A stretch of 64,000 bases of DNA from the NCBI GenBank assembly GCA_041650935.1, contig JBAZKH010000001.1:347337-411336 (forward strand), in the 5' to 3' direction. Below are positions 1 to 56,500 of this stretch, piece after piece. The number at the start of each line of letters is the position of its first letter. Positions within the stretch are counted from its first letter, which is position 1. The stretch comes from Candidatus Omnitrophota bacterium. GTDB taxonomy: Bacteria; Omnitrophota; Gorgyraeia; 2-01-FULL-45-10. The notes beneath the pieces are model-generated. The model was not told where the DNA came from and made no database searches. It worked only from the letters and a program-made list of their open reading frames with translations. A program made the translations under genes and the position numbers.

Positions 1-50
1 GCAACGTATATAAAGTAATACTCGTAACGGTGAGCTGGGATAAATAACGG

Positions 51-539
51 ATGGATCGCAAAGGCGTAACGCTGGTCGAATTTATCGTTGTAGTAGTCAT
101 AAGCGGCTTCATAGTCGTGGCGATAGCCTGCCAGTTTGTCGCGGAGTTGACTTTCCGGCAACTGATATCGGATCAAGTTTTCGTCACAAGCGAATCCGCT
201 ATAGCGATGCGCCATATGGTGAGGGTCCTCAGGTACGCGGATCCGTCCAAGACCGTAACCACAGGCGCCAATAAAGTCGAGGTTACCATCGACCATAAGG
301 CCGCGGGCGATAACCTGCCGGAGATAACGGCCAATACCGCGGTCGCTTACCGTCTTAACGGCGCTTTGCTTGAATACCGGTGCGGCTCAGGCGGCTCATA
401 TCGTAAGATCGCCGATAACATATCGGCTTTTTCGTCATCGTGGGATTCCGATAGTATATTGACGCTGGCGCTTACTGCAAAGAAAAAGACGAGGAGCTGT
501 CCGTTAGAGACGAAAGTCCGTTTTCTGGGAGGCGCATGA
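51..539 (+). CDS. Prepilin-type N-terminal cleavage/methylation domain protein (minor pilin/pseudopilin)
   Basis: N-terminus KGVTLVEFIVVVVISG matches the G|FTLxE prepilin motif followed by a hydrophobic helix. It lies in the pilin/pilMNOPQ neighbourhood. Confidence 0.5.
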   Translation: MDRKGVTLVEFIVVVVISGFIVVAIACQFVAELTFRQLISDQVFVTSESAIAMRHMVRVLRYADPSKTVTTGANKVEVTIDHKAAGDNLPEITANTAVAYRLNGALLEYRCGSGGSYRKIADNISAFSSSWDSDSILTLALTAKKKTRSCPLETKVRFLGGA

Positions 540-1531
540 TAGAAAAAGGCATGGCGGGCAATAGAGGCGCGGTCCTTTTGATGGTGATAATATTCGTGAT
601 GGTTACGATAATCGCCGGCGCCGCGCTCTATTTCTCTGTCTATAATTCATATAAATCGTGCGGTATAGGCGAGGTCAATAGGGTGGAGGACTACTATATA
701 GCATACGCCGGCCTTAGTTACGCGTCTATGCTCCTTGCGGATCCGCGAGGCAATTTTGGTTTTTCCACGCTCCAAACCGGTGATAACGAGGGCCCGAAGA
801 CGATCGAGATCAGTTCATCGCAGAATAATACGATGTGGAGGAACCTTGGCCTTACCGGAAACCGGAAGATATCTATTGCCGTAACGGAAGATTCGAGTAC
901 CAGGAAATATAAAGTAGCTTCTACCTCAGGCGGCGTAACGGTATACGATCTCATGGGTCTTTATATAGCTATCCCCAGGACGGGCCAGACGACATGCTAT
1001 GTTGCGGGCGATGACGGTACTTATAATACAGGCGGCCCGGCCTCCGGGACCGAATATTCTTACGATGCTGCCACCGGCATCCTTACCGATAACGTTACGG
1101 GCCTTATGTGGGCGACTAAAAATCAAGGTATTAATGTTACGTGGACGGATGCTATAAAGAAGTGTGGCGAATGTACTGCCGGCGGCTTCCGGGGCTGGAG
1201 GTTGCCTAATATAAAGGAGCTCTTGACGCTGGTCAATTACGGGCATCAAGTCAGGATAGAAGCCGGGGGCCAGCAAGGTTTCGCGTATGGCGAGACGACG
1301 GCAGAGGACGGTGTAGTCGCTTATGATTTCAGTCCGTGGCCTTTAAATACCGACGAGGAGACCCAATATTGGAGCAGTACGACGGCTTTTATCAATACTA
1401 GCCTGTCGTGGTCCGATAACCGCGCGTTTTGCGTTAATTTCGGAACAGGGTTGGTTGTCCATAATAGTATGAAAGATAGTACGAAACCGAAAGATTTACA
1501 ATTTTATATACCGGTCCGCGATAATACGTAA
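536..1531 (+). CDS. PilX/GspK-like minor pseudopilin fused to a C-terminal DUF1566 (Lcl_C, C-type-lectin-like) domain
   Basis: N-terminus NRGAVLLMVIIFVMVTIIAG resembles the GspK/PilX QRG(V/A)ALI... anchor. The C-terminal half carries DUF1566 hallmarks (DNVTGLMW, WRLPNIKELLTLVNYGH, AFCVNFGTG). It overlaps the upstream pseudopilin by 4 nt. Confidence 0.5.
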   Translation: MIEKGMAGNRGAVLLMVIIFVMVTIIAGAALYFSVYNSYKSCGIGEVNRVEDYYIAYAGLSYASMLLADPRGNFGFSTLQTGDNEGPKTIEISSSQNNTMWRNLGLTGNRKISIAVTEDSSTRKYKVASTSGGVTVYDLMGLYIAIPRTGQTTCYVAGDDGTYNTGGPASGTEYSYDAATGILTDNVTGLMWATKNQGINVTWTDAIKKCGECTAGGFRGWRLPNIKELLTLVNYGHQVRIEAGGQQGFAYGETTAEDGVVAYDFSPWPLNTDEETQYWSSTTAFINTSLSWSDNRAFCVNFGTGLVVHNSMKDSTKPKDLQFYIPVRDNT

Positions 1532-1547
1532 GACAGAAGAGGTAAAC

Positions 1548-2258
1548 ATGAAGACTCTGTTCTTGGCAGTATTTCTGTTATTAGCAGGTTCGCTATCTTT
1601 CGCGGATACGGACAGCGTAACGTTAAGGACAATAGTGTCTAAGACGGTTACTATCAAGGGTGTCCCTAAAACGGGACAGGCCGGCTATGTCTACTATAAC
1701 GGTGATGACGGCACGTATAATAAAGGTTATCCGCCCTCCGGCGAAGAATTTTTTTACAATAGCGCTAATGGTATCCTCTATGATAACGCTACAGGGCTCA
1801 TGTGGGCCGTAGGCAATCAAGCCAAAGGATATACCTGGCCAAACGCTATAACTTTTTGTGAAAGTTGCAAAGCGGGTGGCTTTGAAGATTGGAGACTGCC
1901 GAACATAAAAGAGCTCTTGACGCTGGTCAATTACGGGCACCAGCTTTATGGTAATAACTGGGCCGGATATGCGTATGGAGAGACGACGGTGATAGATCGC
2001 TTTTTTACAGCGAGTTCTATACCATGGCAGCTCTTTTCTTATGATACTTCCAGCGGTTATGAGCCAAACTACAGATATTGGAGCAGTACCACAGCTAAGA
2101 AGCTAACAACAAAAAAAAGCAAACTTGAGACAAACCACGCGTTTTGCGTAAACTTTGGTTCCGGCAGGACTCAGCACAGGGAGAAAAAGTACACCTATAC
2201 TGGAACCAGTAAGGATGTTGTATATAATTGCGCTATACCGGTCCGCGGCCCGGATTAA
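1548..2258 (+). CDS. Secreted DUF1566 (Lcl_C) domain protein, paralog of the upstream gene
   Basis: Signal peptide MKTLFLAVFLLLAGSLSFA. DUF1566 motifs present (TGLMWA, WRLPNIKELLTLVNYGH, AFCVNFGSG). A 30-nt stretch is identical to the upstream paralog. Confidence 0.6.
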   Translation: MKTLFLAVFLLLAGSLSFADTDSVTLRTIVSKTVTIKGVPKTGQAGYVYYNGDDGTYNKGYPPSGEEFFYNSANGILYDNATGLMWAVGNQAKGYTWPNAITFCESCKAGGFEDWRLPNIKELLTLVNYGHQLYGNNWAGYAYGETTVIDRFFTASSIPWQLFSYDTSSGYEPNYRYWSSTTAKKLTTKKSKLETNHAFCVNFGSGRTQHREKKYTYTGTSKDVVYNCAIPVRGPD

Positions 2259-2276
2259 AAGAAAAATTTTGGCATC

Positions 2277-2305
2277 TTGACGATATAAGATTTATCAGGT
2301 ATACT
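2277..2305 (+). promoter_or_regulatory. Sigma70-like promoter (TTGACG-N17-TATACT) upstream of the first pilin gene
   Basis: TTGACG at 2277-2282, 17-nt spacer, TATACT at 2300-2305, about 120 nt upstream of the ATG at 2427. Confidence 0.35.
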
Positions 2306-2426
2306 TTTATTAAGGCTATCCATATAGGCCTTAGTTAGGAAATTAGAAATATAGCTATTGGCTTGTATGGATATTTTATGGTCTTTAAAACGCGCCCAAT
2401 CCTGGGAGAAAGGAAGGTGATTCGAT

Positions 2427-2765
2427 ATGTTGATAAAGATGAGGGAGAAAGGCTTTACGCTCGTTGAAATAATGATAGTTGTCGCAATCATCGGTCTATT
2501 AGCGGCGATAGCCATTCCGAACTTCGTCAGGGCCAGGCAGAAGGCCCAGCAGGAAGCGTGTATAGCCAACCTGAGGCAGATAGAAGGCGCCGAACAGGTA
2601 TGGGCAGTGGATGAAGGCAAGGCAGATACCGATACGCCCACATGGGCTAACCTTGTCCCTAATTACATAAGGACGACACCGGCTTGCAAAGCTGGCGGAG
2701 CGTATACGCTTTCGGCGGTCAATGGAAGACCTTCGTGTAATATTACCAATCACACGCTTCCATAA
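2427..2765 (+). CDS. Type IV pilin-like protein (prepilin-type N-terminal methylation domain)
   Basis: Leader MLIKMREKG|FTLVEIMIVVAIIGLLAAIAIPNF is a classic class III signal/prepilin motif. The protein is small (112 aa). Confidence 0.7.
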   Translation: MLIKMREKGFTLVEIMIVVAIIGLLAAIAIPNFVRARQKAQQEACIANLRQIEGAEQVWAVDEGKADTDTPTWANLVPNYIRTTPACKAGGAYTLSAVNGRPSCNITNHTLP

Positions 2766-2806
2766 CGCGCGAGTTCGTAATGGTAATCATGTTTCAATGA
2801 AAAATA

Positions 2807-2850
2807 CAAATAGGGTCCGGCCCCAAATAGGGTCCGGCCCTTTTTGTTTT
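2807..2850 (+). terminator. Direct repeat (AAATAGGGTCCGGCCC x2) followed by a T-tract; probable intrinsic terminator after the pilin gene
   Basis: aaatagggtccggcccc at 2808-2824 repeated at 2825-2840, then tttttgtttt. GC-rich CCGG-centred segments can fold. Confidence 0.35.
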
Positions 2851-2903
2851 GTCTCTCTTCCCTTGACAAAGCCCCGCTCTTATGATAACTTTATATAAAT
2901 ATT

Positions 2904-3260
2904 ATGTATATATTTAGATATAAAGGCTTTACCCTTATCGAAATAATGATCGTCGTCGCTATTATCGCGATTGCGCTGGCGATTGCCATCCCGAATTTCT
3001 TCCGGATAAGCGCCGTCTCTAAGCAGACCGTCTGTATAAATAATCTCAGGAAGATAACCGCGGCAGTCGAGCAGTGGGCGATAGATAACAATATCGCTTC
3101 AGGCGCTAATATCACGACGACCCAGGAAAGCGATATCTATTCCAGCTACCTTCGCGGCGGTAAACCCAAATGTCCGTCCGGCGGGGATTATCTGTTGAAT
3201 CCTGTCGGCACGAATCCCCAGGCACAATGTACTTACGAGGAAGAGGGGCATAAGATATGA
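2904..3260 (+). CDS. Type IV pilin-like protein (second PilA-like paralog)
   Basis: MYIFRYKG|FTLIEIMIVVAIIAIALAIAIPNF prepilin motif. Its stop overlaps the pilM start. Confidence 0.7.
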   Translation: MYIFRYKGFTLIEIMIVVAIIAIALAIAIPNFFRISAVSKQTVCINNLRKITAAVEQWAIDNNIASGANITTTQESDIYSSYLRGGKPKCPSGGDYLLNPVGTNPQAQCTYEEEGHKI

Positions 3261-4264
3261 CGGCCGGCAGCGTAAACAGGGCGGCTATTGATATCGGAAC
3301 CTCTTGTATCAAAATTCTCCAGGCCGCCGGCCCGGCCGACAAACCTGTTGTGAGCGCTGTCGGTTATAAAGAGATCGCCGGCCTTCCCGCCGACGGGATC
3401 GCCGATGCGTTAAAGTCGCTTGTCCAGGAATCCCAGATAAACGCCAAAGATGCCGTTGTCTCGATATCGGGCCCGTCAGTCATAGTCAGGTTCATTTCCC
3501 TGCCCAAGATGGACGAAGCGGCCCTTAAAGGAGCTATACGATATGAGGCCGAAAAGTTCATACCTTACAATATCAGCGATTGCATTATCGACTTTCAAAC
3601 CCTGCGAAAAGACGATAAAGAGAACAAGTTAAATGTGCTGTTGGTAGCCGCGAAACGGGAATATGTCGAGACCAGGATAGGGCTTATAGAGGGCGCCGGA
3701 TTTTCTGTAAAATTGATAGACGTCGACAGTTTCGCGCTTGCCAATGCATTCCGGCGGAATGTTCCCTCGCCGGACCCGGGTAAATCCTGCGCTATCCTGA
3801 ATATAGGGGGCGCTCATACTAATGTTAGTATTTTGAAGGGTGAGTTGATATATTTTGCCCGGGATATCATTATGGGCGGAAATGATTTTACCGCCGCGAT
3901 AGCCAAGAAGCTGGGAATAGGACAGCGGGAGGCGGAGGAGTTTAAGATACAGCCGCCGAAAGAGAAAGAGCCGGATGTGCTGGAATGCGTCAGGGCGGTC
4001 TTCAATGATTTGCTCGATGAGATCAAGCTTTCGTTCGGCTATTACGAGAATCAGGCCGGCAAAGGGATCGATGAGGTCTATATATCCGGCGGTACGGCGA
4101 ATATTATGGGATTGGAAAGCATATTTGTCGAGACGCTGGAATCGAAACCGCTGTTTTGGAATCCTCTCGACTTTGCGGATATGTCCGCCGTTGCCGCAAA
4201 GGCAGACTTTTTTGACAAACGGAAAAACCAGTTTTGTATAGCGGCCGGCTTACTGTCGAGATAA
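3257..4264 (+). CDS. pilM: Type IV pilus assembly ATPase-like protein PilM
   Basis: AIDIGTSCIKIL actin-like N-terminus typical of PilM. About 335 aa, first gene of the pilMNOPQ order. Confidence 0.8.
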   Translation: MTAGSVNRAAIDIGTSCIKILQAAGPADKPVVSAVGYKEIAGLPADGIADALKSLVQESQINAKDAVVSISGPSVIVRFISLPKMDEAALKGAIRYEAEKFIPYNISDCIIDFQTLRKDDKENKLNVLLVAAKREYVETRIGLIEGAGFSVKLIDVDSFALANAFRRNVPSPDPGKSCAILNIGGAHTNVSILKGELIYFARDIIMGGNDFTAAIAKKLGIGQREAEEFKIQPPKEKEPDVLECVRAVFNDLLDEIKLSFGYYENQAGKGIDEVYISGGTANIMGLESIFVETLESKPLFWNPLDFADMSAVAAKADFFDKRKNQFCIAAGLLSR

Positions 4265-4277
4265 AAGGCGTCCTGTT

Positions 4278-4976
4278 ATGATAACGATAAATCTACTGCC
4301 GGAAGAACGCAGGGAAAAAGAATCTTCGCTGTCGAAGTTTACCCTGACTTTCAAAGGGCAGGAGGGGCTCTTCAGGAATCTTGCCATAGCGGCTCTCGCC
4401 GCCCTGATCTGCATGCACATAGTATTATTTTTTGTCGGGGCCAGAAGTACGGCGACCGCCAAGGCCATGTCGCAGAAATACATTGCTCTTGCCCCGGCCA
4501 GGAGAGAATACGAGGCATTGATAACGGAGGTGAGCGTAGCGAACAGGAAGGCAAAGGCTATAGACGACCTTATGGCAAACCGTTTCAGCTGGGCGCAGAA
4601 GCTGAATGAACTGAGTGATTGCGTAGCGCAGGGTGTGTGGCTTACTAATATATCTTATGATGAAAAGCCGAGCGAGGTCTCGGTGCAGGTAAAAGCGGCC
4701 TCGCTTATGAACGGGAAGAAAGAGATAACCAAGACAGAGACCCGGACGCTGAACTTGCGGTACCTGAATATATCCGGATATGCATCGAGCATGGGAGAGC
4801 AGGGGACTGCGCTGATCGGAAAGTTCATCCAGGGCATGAAGGATAACCCATCGTTTTTCCGGGATTTCATCGACATAAAGCTCGAGTCGATAAAATCGGA
4901 AAAGATATTCGACCAGGAAGTGATGAGTTTTAAAATCACATGCTTTTTTAAAACGGGCGGCGGCGCCGTAAAATGA
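4278..4976 (+). CDS. pilN: Type IV pilus assembly protein PilN
   Basis: Starts MITINLLPEER (INLLP signature). Single TM helix. Position after pilM. Confidence 0.7.
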   Translation: MITINLLPEERREKESSLSKFTLTFKGQEGLFRNLAIAALAALICMHIVLFFVGARSTATAKAMSQKYIALAPARREYEALITEVSVANRKAKAIDDLMANRFSWAQKLNELSDCVAQGVWLTNISYDEKPSEVSVQVKAASLMNGKKEITKTETRTLNLRYLNISGYASSMGEQGTALIGKFIQGMKDNPSFFRDFIDIKLESIKSEKIFDQEVMSFKITCFFKTGGGAVK

Positions 4977-5539
4977 ATCTGGGGATAAAATTCAAAGATA
5001 CTAAACAGATAATGCTGGTGGCCGCTTTGGGCGGTGTCCTGATACTGGTCCTATACCTTAAGCTGCTGCTCGTGCCGCAGATACGGAATGTCGCGAAGGA
5101 GTACGAGCGGGCGAGAAAACTGCGTGTCGATGTTACGACGGCGGAGCGCGATATTTCGAGTGTAGACAGCCTAAAGAAACAGATGGCGCAGTATCGTACT
5201 AAGATCGAAAGTTATGAGTCGATGCTGCCTGTCGAGCAGGAGATCCCTAAGCTTCTGGAGGACCTGTCGAGCATGGCCAAGAGATCCGGCGTCAAGATAG
5301 TAGGGATAACGCCGCTGCAGTCCGGAGAGGAAGCCCGCGAAGGGATATACCAGGAGATACCCATACTCGTAAACGCAAGATCCGGCTATCATGAATTGGG
5401 AAAATTTTTGTCCGAACTGGAGAACGCCAGCCGTTTTATGAAAGTCGTCGACCTGGAATTAAAAGAGAATAAGTCTGCTCCCAAAAGGCACGATGTAGAG
5501 GTGCTGGTCGCGACATATAAGCTGATAGGACTTAAATAA
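4973..5539 (+). CDS. pilO: Type IV pilus assembly protein PilO
   Basis: N-terminal TM plus coiled-coil. Overlaps pilN by 4 nt. Position in the pilMNOPQ order. Confidence 0.6.
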   Translation: MNLGIKFKDTKQIMLVAALGGVLILVLYLKLLLVPQIRNVAKEYERARKLRVDVTTAERDISSVDSLKKQMAQYRTKIESYESMLPVEQEIPKLLEDLSSMAKRSGVKIVGITPLQSGEEAREGIYQEIPILVNARSGYHELGKFLSELENASRFMKVVDLELKENKSAPKRHDVEVLVATYKLIGLK

Positions 5540-5540
5540 T

Positions 5541-5915
5541 ATGTCCAGGAAATTCTTTCCGGCAATTTTAGTTTTAAGCATTTTCATTTATCCGGTCTCG
5601 GTGGAGGCCGAAGGGTTCAGGTATGACCCGCACGGAAAGCGTGATCCGATGGTGCCGCTGATAGGCCAGGAGAAGACGGTCGGAGCCGCTATTCCGCTTT
5701 CCGAGGTAGTCTCTATAGATGATGTGAAACTGGAAGGCGTTGTGGCTCAGATGTCAGGACACAGCATGGCGGTAATGAATGGTGAGCTGGTAAAGGAAGG
5801 TTTCAAATCAGGAGAGCTTGAGGTTAAGAAGGTTTTGAAAAAATCCGTAATGCTTACTATAAGCGGAAAAGAATATAAGGTCAATTTGCCCGAAGAAGGA
5901 GGCCAGAAAGAGTGA
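5541..5915 (+). CDS. pilP: PilP-like small lipoprotein/periplasmic protein
   Basis: Signal peptide, 124 aa, immediately upstream of and overlapping the secretin gene. Confidence 0.45.
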   Translation: MSRKFFPAILVLSIFIYPVSVEAEGFRYDPHGKRDPMVPLIGQEKTVGAAIPLSEVVSIDDVKLEGVVAQMSGHSMAVMNGELVKEGFKSGELEVKKVLKKSVMLTISGKEYKVNLPEEGGQKE

Positions 5916-7657
5916 ATAAGAAAGCCGGCGGGATATTTATCGTATTAGCGTTACTTTTTCTGACGGGCCTGTCATTTGCGCAGGACGACAAGCCGCTTTC
6001 CGAAACGCCGGAGTCTCCCGCTAAAGAGGCGCCTGCCGAAGCTCCGCCGGCACCCGTCGAAACTAAACCTGCCGGGACTGCCGCGGTCACTCCGCCTGAA
6101 CCTGCGCCGGCGCGGCCGGATGAGGCGGTTGCGGTCACTCCGCCTGCCGAGGCGGCGAAGCCGATTGAGCCTGCTGTTTCAAGCCCATCCGCCGAAGAGG
6201 CGCCCGCCGAGGAGAAGAAGGAAGACCTTTCTGCCTCGCCGGTCGAACCCGGCAACGTGACGGTGAATTTTAAAGGAGCGGATATCAAGACGGTCCTTGC
6301 TTATATCTCGGAAGTTTCCGGAGTGGATATAGTCCCCGCACCAGATGTAAAAGGGGTCGTAGATCTGAAATTGACGAATAAGCCATGGAAAGTCGCTCTC
6401 GATATAATCCTGAGAAATTACGGGTTCGCGTATGAGCGGGAGGGGGATATCATAAGGGTTGTGACCGTGAGCCAGCTGAAGCAGGAAGAGCTTGCCTCCC
6501 AGGCTTACAATTTGAATTACAGTAAATGCAAAGACGTAGTCGATTCCATAAAGAATATAGTAAGCGAAAAAGGCAAGGTAACGTATGATGAGAGGACGAA
6601 TACGGTCATCGTCACTGATATACCGACAAATCTTTACAAGATAAGCCAGATAATCTCAAGGCTCGATAAGAAGACCCAGCAGGTCCTTATCGAGGCAAGG
6701 GTGATCGAGACGGTGCTTGATGACAGCGAAAAACTCGGTATCGACTGGAATGTCAAGGTAAGCGCGTCGGGCGCAAAGCGGCCTATAACGTTCCCGTTCG
6801 AACAGTTTAAAGCCGGGTTTGGTAAGGATCAAGAAGGGTTGAATTATTTCCCGCAGGTTTTGACCAGTAGCCCGCAGTCGGCTATCGGCGGGTCCGGTGT
6901 TGCCACCACTACATTAGCCGCGGAGTTTCCAAGCACCGCAAGCGGCACATTTGCTTTTCCCTATGCTACAACGGATGACTTTAAGTTCGGCACTCTCGAC
7001 TTCAGCGAGTTTACCGCCGTACTGGAGATGCTTAAATCGAGGTCGAATACAGATACGGTTTCTAACCCGAGGATCGCCACGCTTAATAACCATGAAGCGC
7101 TCATCAATGTCGGCCAGACTCTTAACCTTCCGAAATACGAAAGGAACTCCTCGACCGGCAAGATGGAAATAACCGGTTACGATCCGAAAGACCTGGGCAT
7201 AATATTGAAGGTAACCCCTCATATAAACGATGTTAACGAGATAGTCGTCGATCTTGAGCCGCAGATATCGAGCCTTTTGCGCTATGACACTCTGGATGCT
7301 GCCAGCGGAGTCGTGGCGCCGGTCTTTTCCTCGAGAACGGCAAAGACGCAGGTCATGATAAAAGATAACCAGACTATTTTTATCGGCGGCCTGATACAGG
7401 AGAGCGATGTCGATACGAAGAAGAAGCTCCCGATCATAGGGGACGTTCTGGGAGATGTCCCGTATCTGGGAATGCTCGTTTCGAAAAAGGAGACCATAAA
7501 ACAGAAGACAGAGCTCATATTTTTCATAACGGTTAATATGATGCTGGGAGACCAGGAAGTTAAAGGTACGCCAAAGAGCGAAAATATCTATAACCCGGCC
7601 TTTACTCTTATGAAGACTGCGGGCAAGATTCCCAAAAAGAAGGAAAAAAAGAGATAA
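5912..7657 (+). CDS. pilQ: Type IV pilus secretin PilQ
   Basis: GTG start with RBS. Signal peptide. Pro/Ala/Glu-rich linker. Secretin_N (NFKGADIKTVLAYISEVSGVDIV). C-terminal secretin domain (LPIIGDVLGDVPYLGMLVSKKETIKQKTELIFFITVNMM). Confidence 0.85.
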   Translation: MNKKAGGIFIVLALLFLTGLSFAQDDKPLSETPESPAKEAPAEAPPAPVETKPAGTAAVTPPEPAPARPDEAVAVTPPAEAAKPIEPAVSSPSAEEAPAEEKKEDLSASPVEPGNVTVNFKGADIKTVLAYISEVSGVDIVPAPDVKGVVDLKLTNKPWKVALDIILRNYGFAYEREGDIIRVVTVSQLKQEELASQAYNLNYSKCKDVVDSIKNIVSEKGKVTYDERTNTVIVTDIPTNLYKISQIISRLDKKTQQVLIEARVIETVLDDSEKLGIDWNVKVSASGAKRPITFPFEQFKAGFGKDQEGLNYFPQVLTSSPQSAIGGSGVATTTLAAEFPSTASGTFAFPYATTDDFKFGTLDFSEFTAVLEMLKSRSNTDTVSNPRIATLNNHEALINVGQTLNLPKYERNSSTGKMEITGYDPKDLGIILKVTPHINDVNEIVVDLEPQISSLLRYDTLDAASGVVAPVFSSRTAKTQVMIKDNQTIFIGGLIQESDVDTKKKLPIIGDVLGDVPYLGMLVSKKETIKQKTELIFFITVNMMLGDQEVKGTPKSENIYNPAFTLMKTAGKIPKKKEKKR

Positions 7658-7689
7658 AAATAAAGTTAACTTTTAAAAAGACCGCGGAT

Positions 7690-7956
7690 ATGCGGTTCAT
7701 TTCGCATCTGGATTTAGTGAGGTTGTTCCAAAGAGCTTTGCGCAGGGCCGGCCTTCCTGTTACAATCACCAAAGGTTTTACTCCCCGCCTTAAGGTGAGC
7801 ATAACCCGGGCATTGAAGTTAGGCGTCGAGAGCGAAAGCGAGGAAGCGGTAGTGTGGATGGACGAGCCGGTGGCGCGAGAAAAGATTATGGATGCTATAA
7901 ACGAACAATTGCCGGAAGGAGTTAAAGTGACCGGCGCCGAAGGAGACGTATCATAA
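7690..7956 (+). CDS. Short DUF2344/TIGR03936-like (radical-SAM-linked) protein
   Basis: RFISHLDLVRLFQRALRRAGLPV...GFTPRLKVSITRALKLGVESESE matches the N-terminal signature of the DUF2344 family commonly found beside rng. Only 88 aa; it overlaps the rng start. Confidence 0.4.
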   Translation: MRFISHLDLVRLFQRALRRAGLPVTITKGFTPRLKVSITRALKLGVESESEEAVVWMDEPVAREKIMDAINEQLPEGVKVTGAEGDVS

Positions 7957-9461
7957 TGCAGAGAGATATATTTATAAATATCGCCCAGCACGAGAAACGC
8001 GTGGCGATACTGGAGAATAAACGCATCGAGGAGTTTTATGTCGAGAGGCCTGACTACGTGAACCTCGTGGGTAATATTTATAAAGGCAGGGTGGAGTCCG
8101 TCCTGCCGGGGATGGGCGCCGCGTTCGTGAGTATGGGGCTCGAGAAGAACGGTTTTCTTTATGTTGCCGATGTAGTGACGGGCGCGGCCAGTTACGAAAA
8201 GCTGTTGGAAGAAGGCGCCGACGAGGAGATAGAGAGGATGGAGTCGAAGAAGCCGTACCCTTCTATCGCGGAACTTCTCAAAAAAGGCGATGAGGTCGTC
8301 GTCCAGGTAGTGAAAGAACCAATAGGTACCAAGGGCGCCAGGCTTACGACGCATATAAGTATACCGGGCAGGTTTCTCGTCCTTATGCCTTTCGATAACC
8401 ATATAGGGCTCTCCAAGAGGATAGAATCCAGGGAGGAGAGGGACAGGATCCGCAAGATCATGGAGGAGCTGAAACTGCCCAAAGATATCGGATTCATCGT
8501 CCGCACTGCCGCCCAGGGCGCCAGCCAGAAGGATTTTTTCAGGGAGTCGAGATATCTCCTAAACCTCTGGCAGAATATAAAGGCGCGGGCGAGACGGGCT
8601 AAACCCCCGCAGCTTATACACCAGGAGTACGATCTTGTTTTGAGGGTGGCCAGAGATATATTCACCTCGGATGTCTCCAAGCTGGAGATAGATTCAAAAG
8701 CCGATTTTAAACGCATATCGAGGTTTTTACGCATACTTGCCCCGCATCTCCGGCCAAGACTTAAGTTCCACGGTGAGAGGACGCCGCTATTCGAAAAGTT
8801 AGAGATAGAGAAGCAGATCGCCAAGATCTATGACAGGGTCGTCCAGCTTAAATCGGGCGGATACCTGATATTCGACCAGACCGAATCGCTCGTTGCGATC
8901 GATGTGAACTCGGGAAAATTCGTGGGGAAACGGAATCTCGAGGACACGGCGTTCAAGACGAATATCGAATCCGCGGAGGAGATACCGAGACAGTTGAAAT
9001 TGCGCGACCTGGGAGGAATAATCATCATAGATTTTATCGACATGGAATTTGCGGACCACCGGCGCAATGTCGTCAAGACCCTGGAGCGGCATCTTGAGAG
9101 CGACAAGGCCAAGACGAAGATACTCAATATCTCGAGCATAGGCCTTGTGGAGATGACCCGGCAGAGAATGAGAAAGTCTATCGAGGGAAAGAGTTACCAG
9201 AAATGCCCGTATTGCAACGGCCGCGGCATAGTCAAGTCTGTTCCCACGATATCCCTGGAGCTCATGCGTAAGCTCGAACATTCCCTTATGGGCAGCAGGG
9301 CGCGGGACATATTTGTATCTCTCCATCCCGAGGTGGCTTACTATGTGTCGAGCCCGGAGCGCAATATGATAAAACCTCTTGAGCGCAGGTTCCGGAAGAC
9401 GGTGCGGGTAATAGAAGATCCCAACCTGCATATCGAGGATATGAAGATAGAGGAGAAGTAG
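7956..9461 (+). CDS. rng: Ribonuclease G/E family endoribonuclease
   Basis: S1 domain GNIYKGRVESVLPGMGAAFVSMG. RNase E/G catalytic core. About 500 aa. Confidence 0.85.
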   Translation: MQRDIFINIAQHEKRVAILENKRIEEFYVERPDYVNLVGNIYKGRVESVLPGMGAAFVSMGLEKNGFLYVADVVTGAASYEKLLEEGADEEIERMESKKPYPSIAELLKKGDEVVVQVVKEPIGTKGARLTTHISIPGRFLVLMPFDNHIGLSKRIESREERDRIRKIMEELKLPKDIGFIVRTAAQGASQKDFFRESRYLLNLWQNIKARARRAKPPQLIHQEYDLVLRVARDIFTSDVSKLEIDSKADFKRISRFLRILAPHLRPRLKFHGERTPLFEKLEIEKQIAKIYDRVVQLKSGGYLIFDQTESLVAIDVNSGKFVGKRNLEDTAFKTNIESAEEIPRQLKLRDLGGIIIIDFIDMEFADHRRNVVKTLERHLESDKAKTKILNISSIGLVEMTRQRMRKSIEGKSYQKCPYCNGRGIVKSVPTISLELMRKLEHSLMGSRARDIFVSLHPEVAYYVSSPERNMIKPLERRFRKTVRVIEDPNLHIEDMKIEEK

Positions 9462-9489: not shown

Positions 9490-11304
9490 ATGTGGAAGAT
9501 ACTGTTTCTGGCCATTCTTGCCGCCGCGATAATCCTCAGTATTCCGACATTTAAGAAAGCGCTGCGAACAAACCTTGCCCTGAATACTCAAATTACCGGC
9601 TTGACTGAAAAGTTTGACGCCGGTCACGTCAATGCCGTCCGTAGTATAGAAGAATTCAAGAGTAAGTGCAAGAGCGCCGCGGATAGCGGTACAAAGGCTG
9701 CTTCAACGGACGAAAAAACAATTGAGGGTATAGTCATACACCTCAAGCATGGCGGTGTTGTAAGCGGAAAACTGCTGGCCAGGCGCGGCGACGAATACGA
9801 AGTAGAAGGCAAGACCGGAAAATATGTCATATTGAAGAGCCAGATCGACCATGTAGAGTCTAAAAAGGCGGACGAGGTGATGTGGCATTATAAACACAGC
9901 GTCGTTGTGAAAAAGACAAGCGGCGTGGTGCTCGACGGTGAAATAGCGGGTGTTGATAACGACAAATTAACGATGTCGTTCGATGAGGGCGGGGGCGGTA
10001 TGGAGATGGCTGTTAACAGGAAGGATGTGAGCCATCTTATCTTCGCGCCGATATGTAACAAAGAGAGCGCCGATACGGAGGCGCGCCTGAAGGGGCTCTT
10101 CCCGAAGATGTCGGTTTATAAAGAGGATAATTTTACGCTATTGACGGATGCAGACCCCGCGTGGATCAAATACTATGTAAAGGAATTGAATAACCAGTAC
10201 GCGGAAATATATTTTAAGTTTTTCGATCTTTTCAGGAACCGCAAACAGGAAGGGCAGAACTTCGTGATCCTTTTCGATGATCCCGAAGGTTACATAAAAT
10301 ATACCGTTGCCTCGCTGGGCCCTATGGATGCTTTAGGCTATTTCAATCCCGACGACAGGACGCTTTTTATATATAATGGGTGGGGTGCCAGGATCGAAAA
10401 GATATATCGCGAGTACATCGAAAGGCTTTGCGCGGGCATTGATGAAATCGCTAAGGCGGACAAGACAAGGCTCGACGACGGCGGGTGGAGGATCGTCGTC
10501 GACGGCTATGCGAAGGAACAGAAGGATGTTTTTTGGAAATGGTACAACGTGCACAAAAGGATAGCGCTTGAAGAGACATTCGAAGTGATGCGGCATGAAT
10601 TTGCGCATGAGATATTCCATAATTGGGGACTACAGGGCATAGTTGTGTCGCGCCCTAAGGTAGATAAAGATGCGATGGCTGCCAAAGAGAGGGAGATATT
10701 GGACGCGCTGGGCAGCTCCGACCAGGAAAAAGTAGAAGGCGTTTTCAAAGATCTATATAAGATGAAGAAGGATTATTATAAAGATTTTGAGATGAGCGCG
10801 GCGAATTCCTGGCTGGCGGAGGGTCTGGCATGCTACTGCGAGACGTCCCCGATAGGGGCCGTAAATGAAAGGTTCCTTGCCGGGTACCAGGAGATGAACG
10901 AGAAGAACAGAATAAACCCGCTTGAGTTTCTGACGAATTTCAAAAAAGGGAGTTTTACGGGCCTGGAATACCAGGCCGTGCTGGATGGTTACGCGGAAAG
11001 CTGGGGGCTTGCCAAATTCCTTGTCGATAAGTATCCGGCGCAATTCATCGATTACCAGAAGCGCATGGCGGACCGGATGGTGCAGAAGAAGATTGCCGCG
11101 GGCGCGGAGGATGATTTTAATATGCTGCTGAAATGCCTTGGCAAAGATCTGCCGGCCCTGGAGAATGAGTTTAAAGAATATATGAGCCGCTTCGAGAAAG
11201 TGGATGATCCGTTCGTCAAGATGGTCCTGGAGTACGAAAAGACGTACGATGAGTTTAGGGAGGTCCAGCAGAAGCGGGAGAAGAAGTATATCTATTTTAA
11301 ATAA
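9490..11304 (+). CDS. Putative membrane-anchored zinc metallopeptidase (HExxH...EGxA gluzincin-like; DUF1570-like)
   Basis: N-terminal TM helix. HEFAHEIFH motif followed by WLAEGLACYCE (candidate third ligand Glu). Confidence 0.45.
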   Translation: MWKILFLAILAAAIILSIPTFKKALRTNLALNTQITGLTEKFDAGHVNAVRSIEEFKSKCKSAADSGTKAASTDEKTIEGIVIHLKHGGVVSGKLLARRGDEYEVEGKTGKYVILKSQIDHVESKKADEVMWHYKHSVVVKKTSGVVLDGEIAGVDNDKLTMSFDEGGGGMEMAVNRKDVSHLIFAPICNKESADTEARLKGLFPKMSVYKEDNFTLLTDADPAWIKYYVKELNNQYAEIYFKFFDLFRNRKQEGQNFVILFDDPEGYIKYTVASLGPMDALGYFNPDDRTLFIYNGWGARIEKIYREYIERLCAGIDEIAKADKTRLDDGGWRIVVDGYAKEQKDVFWKWYNVHKRIALEETFEVMRHEFAHEIFHNWGLQGIVVSRPKVDKDAMAAKEREILDALGSSDQEKVEGVFKDLYKMKKDYYKDFEMSAANSWLAEGLACYCETSPIGAVNERFLAGYQEMNEKNRINPLEFLTNFKKGSFTGLEYQAVLDGYAESWGLAKFLVDKYPAQFIDYQKRMADRMVQKKIAAGAEDDFNMLLKCLGKDLPALENEFKEYMSRFEKVDDPFVKMVLEYEKTYDEFREVQQKREKKYIYFK

Positions 11305-53474: not shown

Positions 53475-53527
53475 ATAAATAAGGAGATTAAGTAAGTTAG
53501 CAATATAAAAACATGGGAGGATTAGAA

Positions 53528-56500
53528 ATGAAAATCCGTGAAAGAACAATATCTGTTGTCGTAATAATGTGTTTTATATTCAATCATATTACTTTTGCTT
53601 CAGAGGTGCAGACTAATACATCCACGCTGGCGCCATTGACCCGGTTCGATCGAATGACAGGCAAAGAGTTTAAGGAAGCCGCGCAGATCCAGATAGGGAT
53701 TACTGAAGCGTTGAAAGGGATCGACGTATTAACTCTCGCCAATATCCGAACGCTGGGCGAACGGTCATTTTCGGAAAAGACCGTATTTTCCTCAAAAGTA
53801 GCCGGCATTATAAATTTCGACCAGGCCCTCGAAGAAAAATTACAAGATGAAAATATAGCGGCAGGTAAGGACTTTTATATATTTAAGGCCCGCATCCCCG
53901 GAAAAGACGGCCAGGATGACAGATGGTACTACTGCCTGCTTTCTAAGGTTAAAACGGATGAGAGGCATTCTATATCCGTTGTGCCGGAAACCTTGATGAG
54001 AAAAGCCTTAAAAAAAGGCACTGTAAAGTTTGCCCATGGATCGATCGACGGCAAAGACAGGGAGATCGTAGAACTATATACAGCACACGAGATAACTACA
54101 TCGAATTGCGAAGCTATAGATCCATGGATAGCCGAGCGCATGGAAAGAGGAGAGTACGCAGTAGATGCCCTTACAGCCGTAATAGACCCTCTTTATAATA
54201 ATGCACAGAAGAAGATGTCCAATCCCGCAGGCTATGACAATGTTCTCGGCCGTATTTATTTATACCTTGAACAACTTGGAGTAGGTCGGGAAAACATAGA
54301 AAGCATTAAGAACGTCTTTGGAGGCGTAGACCGGTTGGAAGGTACTATCATACTTATACCGTATGACGAAGGCGCCCTGCCCGCCATAACCATAAATGGC
54401 CAGCGAGTGATGGTGACCGCCCACTCAAGCCAGTTTGCCACATATATCTTACTGCCAAGGCCGTTATATCAAAACATTTCCGAAGACAAGCCCTGGAATA
54501 TCGACGTAGAAGCGATAATAGAAAAAGATCTGATCCATGAAATAGGCGCCAGGTGCGGACTTAAAACAACAATTAAAGACGGAAGGCTTTGGAATTTATT
54601 GGATGAAGCCGTTAGCTCTTTAAAAGAAAAGCGTCGAATAGAATCTATCGCCGGCTTACAAAATCTCTCCCCAGTTGATTTCCTTAATTTGGAATTGAGG
54701 AACGACTATGCCGCCGGAGGTATAGATAAGAAAAGTATATTCAAAAGGATCATGGCGCTGGTACTGGCTGGTGCAACAAGTATTCTCTCCTCGTGTAGCA
54801 AGCCGGTAGATAAGGTAACTCAGAAAACAGAGATTGGCCAACAGAAGGAAGCGAAGCGGAATACAGAAGGAAAATCCACCGAAATGATTCGCGAGTCTAT
54901 ACAAGAACCGGCCGTTGTCAATAATGAAACAAAGCCCAAGGTATCTTCGTTGACGCCGGCACAATTAGAAAAGCTGGTCAGAGAGATGCCGCCGATGGGG
55001 CCGGGTGTGGTTACAGGAAATGATAATGAAAGTAAGGAAGAAGAATACGGGTCGGTATCAATTGAAGAAAAAGTTAGACAAATTTTCGGTGAGGCGCGTC
55101 AACTTAATAGTTCAAGCGATTTTTATGAGGAAGAACGTGAGGCAATAGTTAGAAAATTAGCTAAAATTGGCAATCCCGCAGTTCCTGTGTTAATAACCGC
55201 AGTTGAAAAAAGTATTTATCCGGACGATTTTTATGTGATCGAATGTTCCATTATAGCACTTGGCGAAATCAGGGATGACAGGGCTGTGGACATATTGATT
55301 AAGTATCTGGAGCAAAATTATGAAAAGAAAATAGGGAATCCTGATACACCACCATTTGATAATTTTATAGCAGAAGCGCTTGGTAAAATAGGTAACAAAA
55401 AAGCAGTTTCTATTCTAGTAAAATTGTTAAATAAAAAAGACACATATTATTATTACCAAAATAAAGTAGTAGAGGCTCTAGGTGCAATAGGTGATGCAAG
55501 CGCGGTGCGGCCTATAATTAGAAGTTTAGATGAAAGGTCTGGGGCATTAAATCTTGCGTGGACTGTGGCTTTGGGCAGGATTGGGAGCGATGAAGCTATA
55601 GAAGTCTTAGTTCGTTTACTGACAAATGGCGATGTGGGAACTAAGAGTGTTGCAGCAATAGGACTGGGCTTAGCACGTGATGTGCGTGCCGTTAAACCTT
55701 TGGTCGATATATCGTTAAAAAGCAGTAACAAAGAAATAAGGGGCTATGCCACAAATATTCTTTTATCATGGCATGAGCGCAGTGCAATTGCAAGGGAGTA
55801 TCTTATTGCCCAATATGGTGATAAATATATTGAAGTATTAAATGCACATAAATTGATCTCGATAGGTGATTTTGACAAATTACTTAAGCTATATGGGGAT
55901 ATTGGTGTCGATGTGCTTATTGATGCTATTAGCGCAGAAACGCTTCCCTACGTTGGGCCTTTGCGATCTTGTGATTTGTTTAAATCACATATTTCAAAAT
56001 ACGATAAATCGGAATTTCTTAGACTTATTAAAAAATTTAATGGAAAAAACAGGGCCGTGCTTCTTTTGTTGTATTGTAATAGTAAAAGCGTGTTTGGATG
56101 GATTACGGATACAGAAAAAGAAGAACTTCTTGAAGCTTGGGGAGTTGAAGAGGAAATTGCGGGAGTCTTTGACAATAAAAGCTACATCGAAATTTTGAAC
56201 GCATTATCTGATCTTAACCCCGAAACTACCTTAAAAATCATAGGCCCTGTTACTAGTCCTTTAATTAGAGGCACGGTTCGTGGTACGAGCAGTGCATCTG
56301 AGTATGTCGCAGGGTTCGTCGGAGATGCCAGAATGTTGACGTTAATGCAAGTATCAACGCCTGTAAAATTATTAGCAAAAAACAAAAAATTGTCCATGTC
56401 AGGATATGTTGATGGGAGAACTCATTTTGGCATACGCATTCCACCAGTTATATGGACTATAAACGATGAAAAGCAACTAATAAAATTACTGTCAAGTCCA

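What the first reader, a model, noticed from the sequence alone, without database searches (positions are those of the whole stretch)
536..2258. Pilus-associated lectin-like module: PilX/GspK-like pseudopilin fused to DUF1566, plus a secreted DUF1566 paralog, inside the minor-pilin/pilMNOPQ cluster
The order is: pseudopilin (51-539), PilX/GspK-anchor-DUF1566 fusion (536-1531), secreted DUF1566 (1548-2258), two PilA-like pilins, pilMNOPQ.

DUF1566 (Lcl C-terminal domain) is a C-type-lectin-fold domain. Its fusion to a GspK/PilX-type pseudopilin anchor suggests a tip-located adhesin or glycan-binding subunit of a type IV pilus or T2SS-like fibre. I do not recognise this as a described arrangement.
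Basis: partly seen in the sequence, partly recalled or inferred. Interest (0 to 1): 0.6.

Follow-up and report, generated by a model that had tools for sequence, protein, structure and literature searches.

The report
Pilus-tip subunit carrying a lectin-like head
In an uncultured Omnitrophota bacterium, a small tip-type subunit of the type IV pilus is fused to a lectin-like DUF1566 domain and followed by a secreted copy of that domain. This is a new variant of the known "modular pilin" way of putting an adhesin on a pilus tip.

Summary
ORFs 51-539, 536-1531 and 1548-2258 exist as described. Both DUF1566 (Pfam Lcl_C) hits are well above threshold, and two pilin genes plus pilMNOPQ follow.

No PilX or GspK model matches the N-terminus of the 331-aa protein. 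Other evidence supports a K-type (PilX/GspK-like, Glu5-less) minor pilin:
- About 68 homologue clusters share a class III signal peptide, with Gly at -1 in 57 of 57 aligned members, a basic leader of 5-12 residues and no Glu at +5.
- AlphaFold2 (pLDDT 90) gives a 57-residue helix plus a small sheet.
- The gene always follows two canonical prepilin genes.

Upstream DNA shows the window starts inside a tandemly duplicated cassette. Cassette A is I-J-K plus a secreted DUF1566. Cassette B is I-J-K::DUF1566 plus a secreted DUF1566. Nine loci show K followed by, or fused to, DUF1566, and the fusion point is the mature N-terminus of the secreted form.

Best reading: a tip-displayed adhesin in the PilY1 slot. 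The ligand is unknown.

Modular pilins with lectin modules are established, and a pilin-DUF1566 architecture is already listed in a published dataset. I rate this a new variant of a known kind, of moderate interest.

The parts
1..47 (+). 3' end of the I-like (PilV/GspI-like) minor pilin gene of cassette B. The full gene is L001 2112-2465 (117 aa, leader MRNRRAG|VTLIEL, Glu5 present).
   Evidence: (N_methyl E 8.5e-7). Family alignment A11. The profile hits pilin N-termini in the PDB at E about 1e-4.
51..539 (+). J-like (PilW/GspJ-like by position and size) minor pilin, 162 aa, leader MDRKG|VTLVEF, Glu5 present. Its stop overlaps the start of the next gene (ATGA).
   Evidence: (N_methyl 22.2 bits). 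NCBI names it a prepilin-type N-terminal cleavage/methylation domain protein.
536..1531 (+). K-type modular minor pilin fused to DUF1566, 331 aa.
536..568 (+). Putative class III leader (MIEKGMAGNRG) ending in the family-invariant Gly11. Predicted prepilin-peptidase cleavage lies after it. Mature +5 is Met, not Glu.
   Evidence: Gly in 57/57 members, K/R at -2 and -3 in 47/57 each, no Glu at +5.
569..955 (+). Pilin module (aa 12-140): alpha1 helix at aa 10-66, then strands 88-92, 112-119, 124-131 and 134-140. It is 37% identical to the stand-alone 126-aa K gene of cassette A.
   Evidence: (pLDDT 89.9).
935..955 (+). First strand after the fusion junction (GVTVYDLM region, aa 134-140). AlphaFold2 predicts it as a strand immediately after the last pilin-module strand (124-131). 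It corresponds to the mature N-terminal strand of the secreted DUF1566 proteins (putative docking strand).
959..1036 (+). Low-confidence, probably flexible, linker (aa 142-167) that includes the IPRTGQ motif.
   Evidence: pLDDT below 50.
1037..1528 (+). DUF1566 / Lcl_C module (aa 168-331; Pfam match at aa 182-311, bases 1079-1468) with a variable, low-confidence loop at aa 236-262.
1548..2258 (+). Secreted DUF1566 paralogue, 236 aa. Type I signal peptide is aa 1-19 (1548-1604). The mature N-terminal strand DTDSVTLRTIVSKT is at 1605-1646. Lcl_C is aa 76-216 (1773-2195). It is 46% identical to the DUF1566 part of the fusion.
   Evidence: (P0002).
2427..2765 (+). PilA-like pilin 1 (112 aa, KG|FTLVEIM).
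2904..3260 (+). PilA-like pilin 2 (118 aa, KG|FTLIEIM).
3257..7657 (+). pilM (3257-4264), pilN (4278-4976), pilO (4973-5539), a small pilP-like ORF (5541-5915) and the pilQ secretin (5912-7657).

Best explanation
The 331-aa protein is a modular minor pilin of a type IVa pilus. It has four parts: a Glu5-less class III signal peptide of the PilX/GspK (K) subtype, a very small pilin module, a linker of about 25 residues that is probably flexible, and a DUF1566 (Lcl_C, C-type-lectin-like) module.

It is the third gene of an I-like/J-like/K-like minor-pilin cassette. The cassette occurs twice in tandem between pilC and the pilA genes. After cleavage by the prepilin peptidase, the three minor pilins would form the priming and tip complex with K on top. 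The DUF1566 module would then sit at the extreme tip as a ligand-binding head.

In the unfused version (cassette A and several other loci), the DUF1566 protein is exported by Sec. Its gene sits directly after K, the position PilY1 has in classical systems. I infer that it docks on K through its mature N-terminal beta-strand, which is exactly where the fusions join the two proteins. The second, secreted DUF1566 (1548-2258) would join the fused one at the tip, perhaps as a hetero-oligomer.

The likely role is attachment to surface polymers of other cells, in a phylum thought to be host-dependent.

Shown: domain content, family-wide signal-peptide features, predicted fold, synteny, and recurrence of the fusion. 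Inferred: cleavage, tip location, docking by strand addition, and any ligand.
For: Domain content:
- Lcl_C hits are far above threshold in both ORFs.
- The N-module is 37% identical to a stand-alone 126-aa gene in the upstream paralogous cassette.

Family of the N-module:
- An exhaustive HMMER search finds 69 cluster representatives (68 besides the query itself). Most are stand-alone proteins of 115-145 aa. Four more are fusions to DUF1566 and four are fusions to other modules.
- The family shows Gly at -1 in 57/57, a basic 5-12 aa leader, +1 F/Y/A/S/V, Leu at +3 in 55/57, never Glu at +5, then at least 20 uncharged residues.
- The most frequent weak NCBIfam hit is GspK (5/58, best E 8e-4). 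In Pfam, PilX_N is hit by 2/41 members.

Structure:
- AlphaFold2 of aa 1-137 gives pLDDT 89.9, with helix 10-66 and a 4-strand sheet.
- The full-length model shows pilin module, disordered linker and DUF1566 module.

Synteny:
- Two N_methyl pilins always precede K.
- K is followed by or fused to DUF1566 in 9 loci.
- One of these loci sits directly after the PilB- and PilC-type genes.

Fusion junction:
- The junction equals the mature N-terminus of the secreted forms. Compare ...SFA|EEIEIRAIVPKP with ...TFSAGQIRIAAIVPKP.
- The motif is absent from 118 other DUF1566 proteins.

Literature:
- PilX and GspK lack Glu5 and cap the tip. [quoted passage not shown]
- Modular pilins present lectin modules at the tip (PMC8179133, PMC9934059).
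- Lcl-CTD is C-type-lectin-like and binds sulphated glycosaminoglycans (PMC11162425).
Against: - No curated pilin, PilX or GspK model matches the query itself. Family-level hits are weak and below cut-offs.
- The I and J labels rest on order, size and Glu5 only.
- No prepilin peptidase was looked for in the rest of the genome.
- Lcl lacks the Ca2+/carbohydrate motifs of true C-type lectins, so 'lectin' may be the wrong word.
- No experiment exists for any member of this family.
Confidence: 0.62

Rival explanations
1. The DUF1566 proteins are cargo rather than tip fixtures. The machine works like a type II secretion system in this respect: the K-capped filament pushes Sec-exported DUF1566 proteins through the secretin, and they then stay on the cell surface or are released. 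The fused form would be a derived, tethered variant.
For: - The prototype DUF1566 protein, Lcl, is a T2SS-dependent exoprotein that ends up on the bacterial surface (PMC11162425).
- GspK is proposed to contact T2SS substrates, and PilY1 has been called an analogue of a T2SS substrate (PMC7541494).
- Omnitrophota giant proteins are encoded downstream of T2SS-like loci with small class III signal peptide genes (bioRxiv 10.1101/2023.11.21.568195). The same K family precedes a giant ORF in L007.
Against: - Covalent fusion to a pilin module, which probably arose twice, argues for stable association with the filament rather than release.
- The cluster is pilMNOPQ plus PilA-like pilins, which is T4aP-type, not gspC/L/M.
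Confidence: 0.17
2. The N-terminal segment is an uncleaved signal anchor. The protein is an inner-membrane-tethered periplasmic DUF1566 protein, for example an assembly or cell-wall-binding accessory, that never enters the filament.
For: - No pilin HMM hit for the query.
- No Glu5.
- No structural match in the PDB by Foldseek.
Against: - An invariant Gly after a basic leader in 57/57 members has no explanation in a plain anchor.
- The helix is 57 residues long and packs on a beta-sheet as in pilins.
- There is strict synteny behind two canonical prepilins.
- Lack of Glu5 is itself the hallmark of PilX/GspK.
Confidence: 0.12
3. The fusion ORF is an assembly or frameshift artefact that joins a K gene and a DUF1566 gene.
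For: The closest relatives (cassette A, the P0121 locus) have separate genes.
Against: - The identical protein is on record from several sources, including a 710-kb contig and an independent Logan assembly.
- Four other cluster representatives have the same architecture. One was seen on three contigs from three samples.
- The signal-peptide-coding segment is cleanly absent and the frame is continuous.
Confidence: 0.02

Closest known systems
Modular type IV pilins: Streptococcus sanguinis PilC (pilin + Ig-like + ConA-like lectin module) and PilB (pilin + vWA); ETEC CofB (PMC8179133, PMC9934059)
   Same: - A small N-terminal pilin module acts as carrier, joined by a short linker to a grafted ligand-binding module that is not specific to pili.
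- Tip location is predicted, together with a partner minor pilin.
- A pilin-DUF1566 architecture (IPR012902-IPR011460) is already listed in Dataset S1 of PMC8179133.
   Different: - The carrier here is the Glu5-less K-type subunit, which no N_methyl/IPR012902 model detects, so surveys of that kind would miss it.
- The grafted module also exists as a separate Sec-secreted protein in sister cassettes.
- The organism is a diderm Omnitrophota bacterium with a pilMNOPQ machine.
PilX/GspK (K subunit) with PilY1 in T4aP tip complexes (Myxococcus xanthus, Pseudomonas aeruginosa; PMC7541494)
   Same: - The K subunit lacks Glu5 and is encoded after the I- and J-type minor pilins.
- A type I signal peptide adhesin gene lies directly downstream of K.
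- There are several paralogous cassettes with different adhesin heads.
   Different: - The K module here is only about 125 aa, with no GspK alpha-domain and no PF14341 or PF03934 match at threshold.
- No H-type (FimU/GspH) gene was seen in the cassette.
- The downstream protein has no PilY1 beta-propeller. It is a protein of about 215-245 aa with a DUF1566 domain, and in cassette B it is covalently fused to K.
Legionella pneumophila Lcl (collagen-like adhesin with C-terminal DUF1566; PMC11162425)
   Same: - It shares the Pfam domain (Lcl_C).
- It is exported through a type-4-filament machine (T2SS), exposed on the surface and has an adhesin role.
   Different: - Lcl has a collagen-like stalk and forms a trimer.
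- It is not encoded in a pilin cassette and is not fused to a pilin.
- Sequence similarity is too low for a direct PDB sequence hit.
T2SS-like loci with small class III signal peptide genes upstream of Omnitrophota giant genes (bioRxiv 10.1101/2023.11.21.568195)
   Same: Same phylum. The same K-like family, in I-J-K triads, sits immediately upstream of a giant secreted ORF in L007.
   Different: In the window, the slot after K holds small DUF1566 proteins instead of a giant protein.

Membership tests
Type IV pilin / class III signal peptide proteins | Short hydrophilic or basic leader ending in Gly, followed by about 20 hydrophobic residues | tested here: met
   Query has MIEKGMAGNRG|AVLLMVIIFVMVTIIAGAALY. 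In the family, Gly is present in 57/57, K/R at -2 and -3 in 47/57 each, and at least 20 uncharged residues follow.
Type IV pilin / class III signal peptide proteins | Match to the N_methyl motif (PF07963 / TIGR02532) with Glu at +5 | tested here: not met
   No hit even at E<=10. The +5 position is never Glu. This is the known exception for the K/PilX subtype (PMC7541494).
Type IV pilin / class III signal peptide proteins | Long N-terminal alpha1 helix packed on an antiparallel beta-sheet | tested here: inconclusive
Type IV pilin / class III signal peptide proteins | Cleavage by prepilin peptidase and incorporation into the filament | not testable with these tools
   Needs experiment.
GspK (T2SS minor pseudopilin K; PF03934, NF037980) | Sequence match at the curated threshold, and the large alpha-domain inserted in the pilin fold (about 320 aa) | tested here: not met
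   The query has no hit. 5/58 family members give weak N-terminal hits, best E 8e-4. The module is only about 125 aa with no inserted domain.
PilX (PF14341 PilX_N) | Match to the PilX N-terminal model | tested here: not met
   The query has no hit. 2/41 family members give weak hits, best E 0.003.
K-type tip subunit (functional class) | Lacks Glu5, and is encoded after I-type and J-type minor pilins that keep Glu5 | tested here: met
   The order of genes of about 115 aa, 165-175 aa and 125 aa is conserved in the window/L001 (twice), L006, L007 (twice), L009, L010, L014 and the P0155 locus. The I and J labels are by position and size only.
DUF1566 / Lcl_C (PF07603) | Pfam match above the gathering score | tested here: met
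   67.7 and 74.1 bits against a cut-off of 34.9.
C-type-lectin-like fold | Structural similarity to CTLD proteins | tested here: inconclusive
Modular pilin (as defined in PMC8179133) | N-terminal pilin module, then a linker, then a functional domain not specific to pilus biology | tested here: met
   Pilin module aa 12-140, linker aa 142-167 (pLDDT below 50), DUF1566 module aa 168-331. This depends on the pilin assignment above.
PilY1/PilC adhesins (IPR008707 beta-propeller) | C-terminal PilY1 beta-propeller domain | tested here: not met
   Only Lcl_C is found in the proteins encoded after K. The analogy is by gene position and signal peptide type only.
DGR variable protein (DUF1566 is a known DGR target) | Near-identical template/variable repeat pair | tested here: not met
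   No such repeat in window 1-8000. The only related pair is the 71%-identical paralogous stretch 1138-1248 / 1832-1942.
DGR variable protein (DUF1566 is a known DGR target) | Nearby reverse transcriptase | not tested
   A reverse transcriptase was not searched for exhaustively.

The most novel reading that the evidence does not exclude
Omnitrophota type IV pili may use the small K-type pilin as a universal socket. Sec-exported effectors of quite different kinds would carry a short N-terminal beta-strand tag (A|EE-[IV]-x-[IV]-x-A-I-V-P-K-P) that adds to the K pilin sheet and loads them on the pilus tip. The effectors seen next to K are DUF1566 heads, tail-fibre-like proteins with a Peptidase_S74 chaperone domain, and perhaps the phylum's giant proteins. 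The K::DUF1566 fusions would be the 'Rosetta stone' that reveals this interface. The pilus would then be an exchangeable, phage-tail-fibre-like host-recognition device.
Probability: 0.25. Interest if true: 0.75.

Novelty: new variant of a known kind. Interest (0 to 1): 0.5.

Why it matters
How non-pilin adhesins such as PilY1 are held on the minor-pilin tip complex is still poorly defined. Here the same pair of proteins exists both split (K plus a secreted DUF1566) and fused (K::DUF1566), with the junction at the mature N-terminus. That points to a specific interface that can be tested.

The K-type carrier is invisible to the N_methyl signature used in published surveys of modular pilins, so such surveys undercount tip-adhesin diversity.

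For Omnitrophota, which are thought to attach to or prey on other cells and which nearly all encode T4aP, this gives a concrete candidate for the recognition head. It also links the minor-pilin cassettes to the phylum's giant proteins.

Tried and rejected
- **Direct HMM assignment of the N-terminus.** Pfam and NCBIfam were run at E up to 10 and gave nothing for the query.
- **Profile against PDB sequences.** Only a geopilin N-terminus was hit, at E 0.62.
- **Profile-profile comparison with the window's own PilA.** It aligns Gly with Gly, but at a probability of only 6.6%.
- **PDB sequence search with the DUF1566 half.** No Lcl hit.
- **Wider surveys of related loci.**
  - Word-indexed profile search: 6 proteins.
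  - Metagenome scan: 2 loci.
  - The association counts therefore come from 12 contig look-ups, not a census.
- **Homologues of the J-like ORF.** Only the protein itself was found.
- **Diversity-generating retroelement.** Considered because DUF1566 is a known DGR target. No template/variable repeat was found in 1-8000.
- **Assembly artefact.** Rejected, because the fusion recurs in independent samples.
- **P0164 (1182 aa).** This hit in the family search is a PKD-repeat protein that matches only the beta part, so it is spurious.
Full report
**1. What is in the sequence**

- ORF 51-539 (162 aa, MDRKG|VTLVEF...) passes the Pfam N_methyl cut-off.
- ORF 536-1531 (331 aa) overlaps its stop codon (ATGA). 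It carries Lcl_C/DUF1566 (PF07603) at aa 182-311, E 1.4e-18.
- Two canonical pilins (2427-2765, 2904-3260), pilM, pilN, pilO, a small pilP-like ORF and a secretin follow.
- The rest of the window is housekeeping: arginyl-tRNA synthetase, Mfd, LarC, FabF and others.

NCBI names the 331-aa protein as coming from a Candidatus Omnitrophota MAG, on a 710-kb contig.

**2. The window starts inside the cluster**

A Logan contig that carries the identical protein (L001) extends 2.4 kb upstream. It shows the end of a PilC/T2SSF gene followed by two paralogous four-gene cassettes.

| Cassette | I-like | J-like | K-like | After K |
|---|---|---|---|---|
| A | 115-aa pilin | 164-aa pilin | 126 aa, no Pfam hit (MVRDKKG\|SLLIIAMIF...) | 216-aa secreted DUF1566 |
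| B | 117-aa pilin (its end is window 1-47) | 162-aa ORF 51-539 | 331-aa ORF | 236-aa secreted DUF1566 |

The first 131 residues of the 331-aa protein align with the whole 126-aa protein at 37% identity. The remainder aligns with the secreted DUF1566 proteins minus their signal peptides. The 331-aa protein is therefore 'K-like protein + mature DUF1566 protein'.

**3. Is the N-terminal module a pilin?**

Direct HMM evidence is negative for the query. An exhaustive HMMER search of 1.8 billion cluster representatives with aa 1-145 found 69 representatives, 68 besides the query itself. Most are stand-alone proteins of 115-145 aa. In the alignment of 58 members:
- the putative -1 position is Gly in 57 of 57 aligned sequences;
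- -2 and -3 are Lys or Arg in 47 of 57 each;
- leaders are 5-12 residues long;
- +1 is F, Y, A, S or V, and +3 is Leu in 55 of 57;
- +5 is never Glu;
- at least 20 uncharged residues follow.

This is a class III signal peptide of the subtype that lacks Glu5, which is characteristic of PilX and GspK (PMC7541494). Weak family-level hits point the same way. GspK is the NCBIfam model hit by the most members (5 of 58, best E 8e-4). PilX_N is hit by 2 of 41. None reach curated thresholds.

Synteny is consistent. In every locus with upstream sequence, the K-like gene follows a pilin of about 110-120 aa and a pilin of about 165-177 aa, both with Glu5. Profiles of those two families hit pilin N-termini in the PDB at E about 1e-4, but no specific GspI/J or PilV/W entry.

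I conclude that the module is a K-type minor pilin by features and position. It is not a demonstrable member of the GspK or PilX families.

**4. Architecture of the fusion**

The full-length model (pLDDT 75) has three parts:
- a confident pilin module, aa 10-140;
- a low-confidence linker, aa 142-167;
- a DUF1566 module, aa 168-331, mostly pLDDT 70-93, with one variable low-confidence loop at aa 236-262.

**5. The association recurs**

Among the family representatives, four others (P0152, P0155, P0156, P0159) are K::DUF1566 fusions. Each is followed by a secreted DUF1566 gene and, where visible, preceded by the I-like and J-like genes. P0156 is on three contigs from three samples.

Stand-alone K genes are followed by one or two secreted DUF1566 genes in four places:
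- cassette A;
- the P0121 locus, which lies directly after the PilB- and PilC-type genes;
- the P0126 locus;
- L010.

That makes nine loci in all.

An unbootstrapped NJ tree of the K modules places the window's fusion with the stand-alone A3 and P0121 proteins. The other four fusions fall in a separate clade. This suggests two independent fusion events.

Other family members are fused to different modules: a Gly-rich domain, or domains with no Pfam match. Others are followed by different secreted proteins: a Peptidase_S74 tail-fibre-like protein in L013, or a giant ORF of more than 2,859 aa after two tandem triads in L007. West-Roberts et al. reported T2SS-like loci with small class III signal peptide genes upstream of Omnitrophota giant genes.

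**6. The junction**

After signal-peptide cleavage, the secreted DUF1566 proteins encoded next to K start with a conserved strand-like motif:
- SFA|EEIEIRAIVPKP (L002)
- EEIKIAAIVPKP (L005)
- EEIEVRAIVRRP and EEIKVAANVRRP (L010)
- EEVEIRFIVPKP (L014)
- DEVVLKAIVPKT (cassette A)
- DTDSVTLRTIVSKT (window 1605-1646)

The S74-type protein of L013 starts with EEVKLTTILPQQ.

In fusion P0156 the K module ends ...TSTYTFS and continues AGQIRIAAIVPKP. The fusion point is thus the mature N-terminus. In the window's protein the corresponding segment (GVTVYDLM, aa 134-140) is predicted as a further beta-strand directly after the last strand of the pilin module.

I fitted a regular expression to these examples after the fact. 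It has no hit in 52,794 residues of 118 other DUF1566 proteins. In 38,420 residues of six-frame window translation, its only hit is the known one.

From this I infer that the effector's N-terminal strand docks on K, and that the fusion makes the contact covalent. This is an inference. Shared ancestry of the DUF1566 paralogues explains part of the motif's conservation.

**7. Mechanism and rivals**

*Best reading (0.62).* A K-type modular minor pilin displays a DUF1566 ligand-binding head at the tip of a T4aP. The secreted paralogue joins it there, in the role PilY1 plays elsewhere.

*Rivals.*
- DUF1566 proteins are exported cargo, as Lcl is for the Legionella T2SS. Confidence 0.17.
- The N-terminus is an uncleaved signal anchor. 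Confidence 0.12.
- The fusion is an assembly artefact. Confidence 0.02.

The ligand is unknown. 'Lectin' is a fold label, not a shown activity.

**8. Novelty**

Modular pilins, including lectin-bearing ones predicted at the tip, are established (PMC8179133, PMC9934059). Dataset S1 of the former lists IPR012902-IPR011460, which is pilin-DUF1566, in 7 proteins, plus 2 with two copies.

Four things are new here:
- The carrier is a K-type subunit that the N_methyl signature does not detect.
- Split and fused forms coexist, and this pinpoints a likely docking interface.
- The cassette is tandemly duplicated.
- The effector slot after K is interchangeable in Omnitrophota.

I rate this a new variant of a known kind, with interest 0.5.

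Noticed in passing
L007 4326-7393 and 7485 onward (GCA_030154545.1, JASEYN010003479.1): Two tandem I-J-K-like triads of the same K family, with a divergently oriented canonical pilin between them. They are followed directly by a giant ORF (more than 2,859 aa, type I signal peptide, almost no Pfam domains). PilZ and response-regulator genes lie upstream.
   Followed up: partly
L013 680-1606; L006 731-1915: Secreted proteins with a C-terminal Peptidase_S74 (endosialidase-chaperone, phage tail-fibre-like) domain are encoded next to the minor-pilin triads. The L013 protein starts, after its signal peptide, with EEVKLTTILP, which resembles the N-terminal motif of the K-adjacent DUF1566 proteins.
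   Followed up: partly
L001 156-2049 (2.4 kb upstream of the window): A complete paralogous cassette (I-like 115 aa, J-like 164 aa, stand-alone K-like 126 aa, secreted DUF1566 216 aa) sits directly after the 3' end of a PilC/T2SSF gene. The window therefore cuts the minor-pilin region in half.
   Followed up: yes
P0129, P0130, P0134, P0162 (family members): The same K-type module is fused to other C-terminal modules: a Gly_rich_2 domain in P0162, and about 110-180 aa with no Pfam match in the others. P0130 is followed by three unannotated genes of about 180-220 aa.
   Followed up: partly
window 1229-1366 (aa 232-277 of the fusion) and window 1940-2090 in the secreted paralogue: The stretch between the conserved VNYGHQ and YWSSTT motifs differs strongly in length and sequence among the three DUF1566 paralogues. 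In the fusion it contains the low-confidence loop of the model (aa 236-262). It may be the specificity-determining surface.
   Followed up: no
window 2277-2305: The best sigma-70-like match of the region (10 of 12) lies in the 168-bp gap between the secreted DUF1566 gene and the first pilA-like gene. This would give the major pilins their own promoter. It is a consensus match only.
   Followed up: no
window 53513-57784: A 1,423-aa ORF made largely of HEAT/PBS-lyase-type repeats. It is unrelated to the finding.
   Followed up: no
window 9490-11304: A 604-aa ORF with an N-terminal hydrophobic segment and no Pfam match at E<=1e-5, just downstream of the pil cluster and an RNase E/G-like gene.
   Followed up: no
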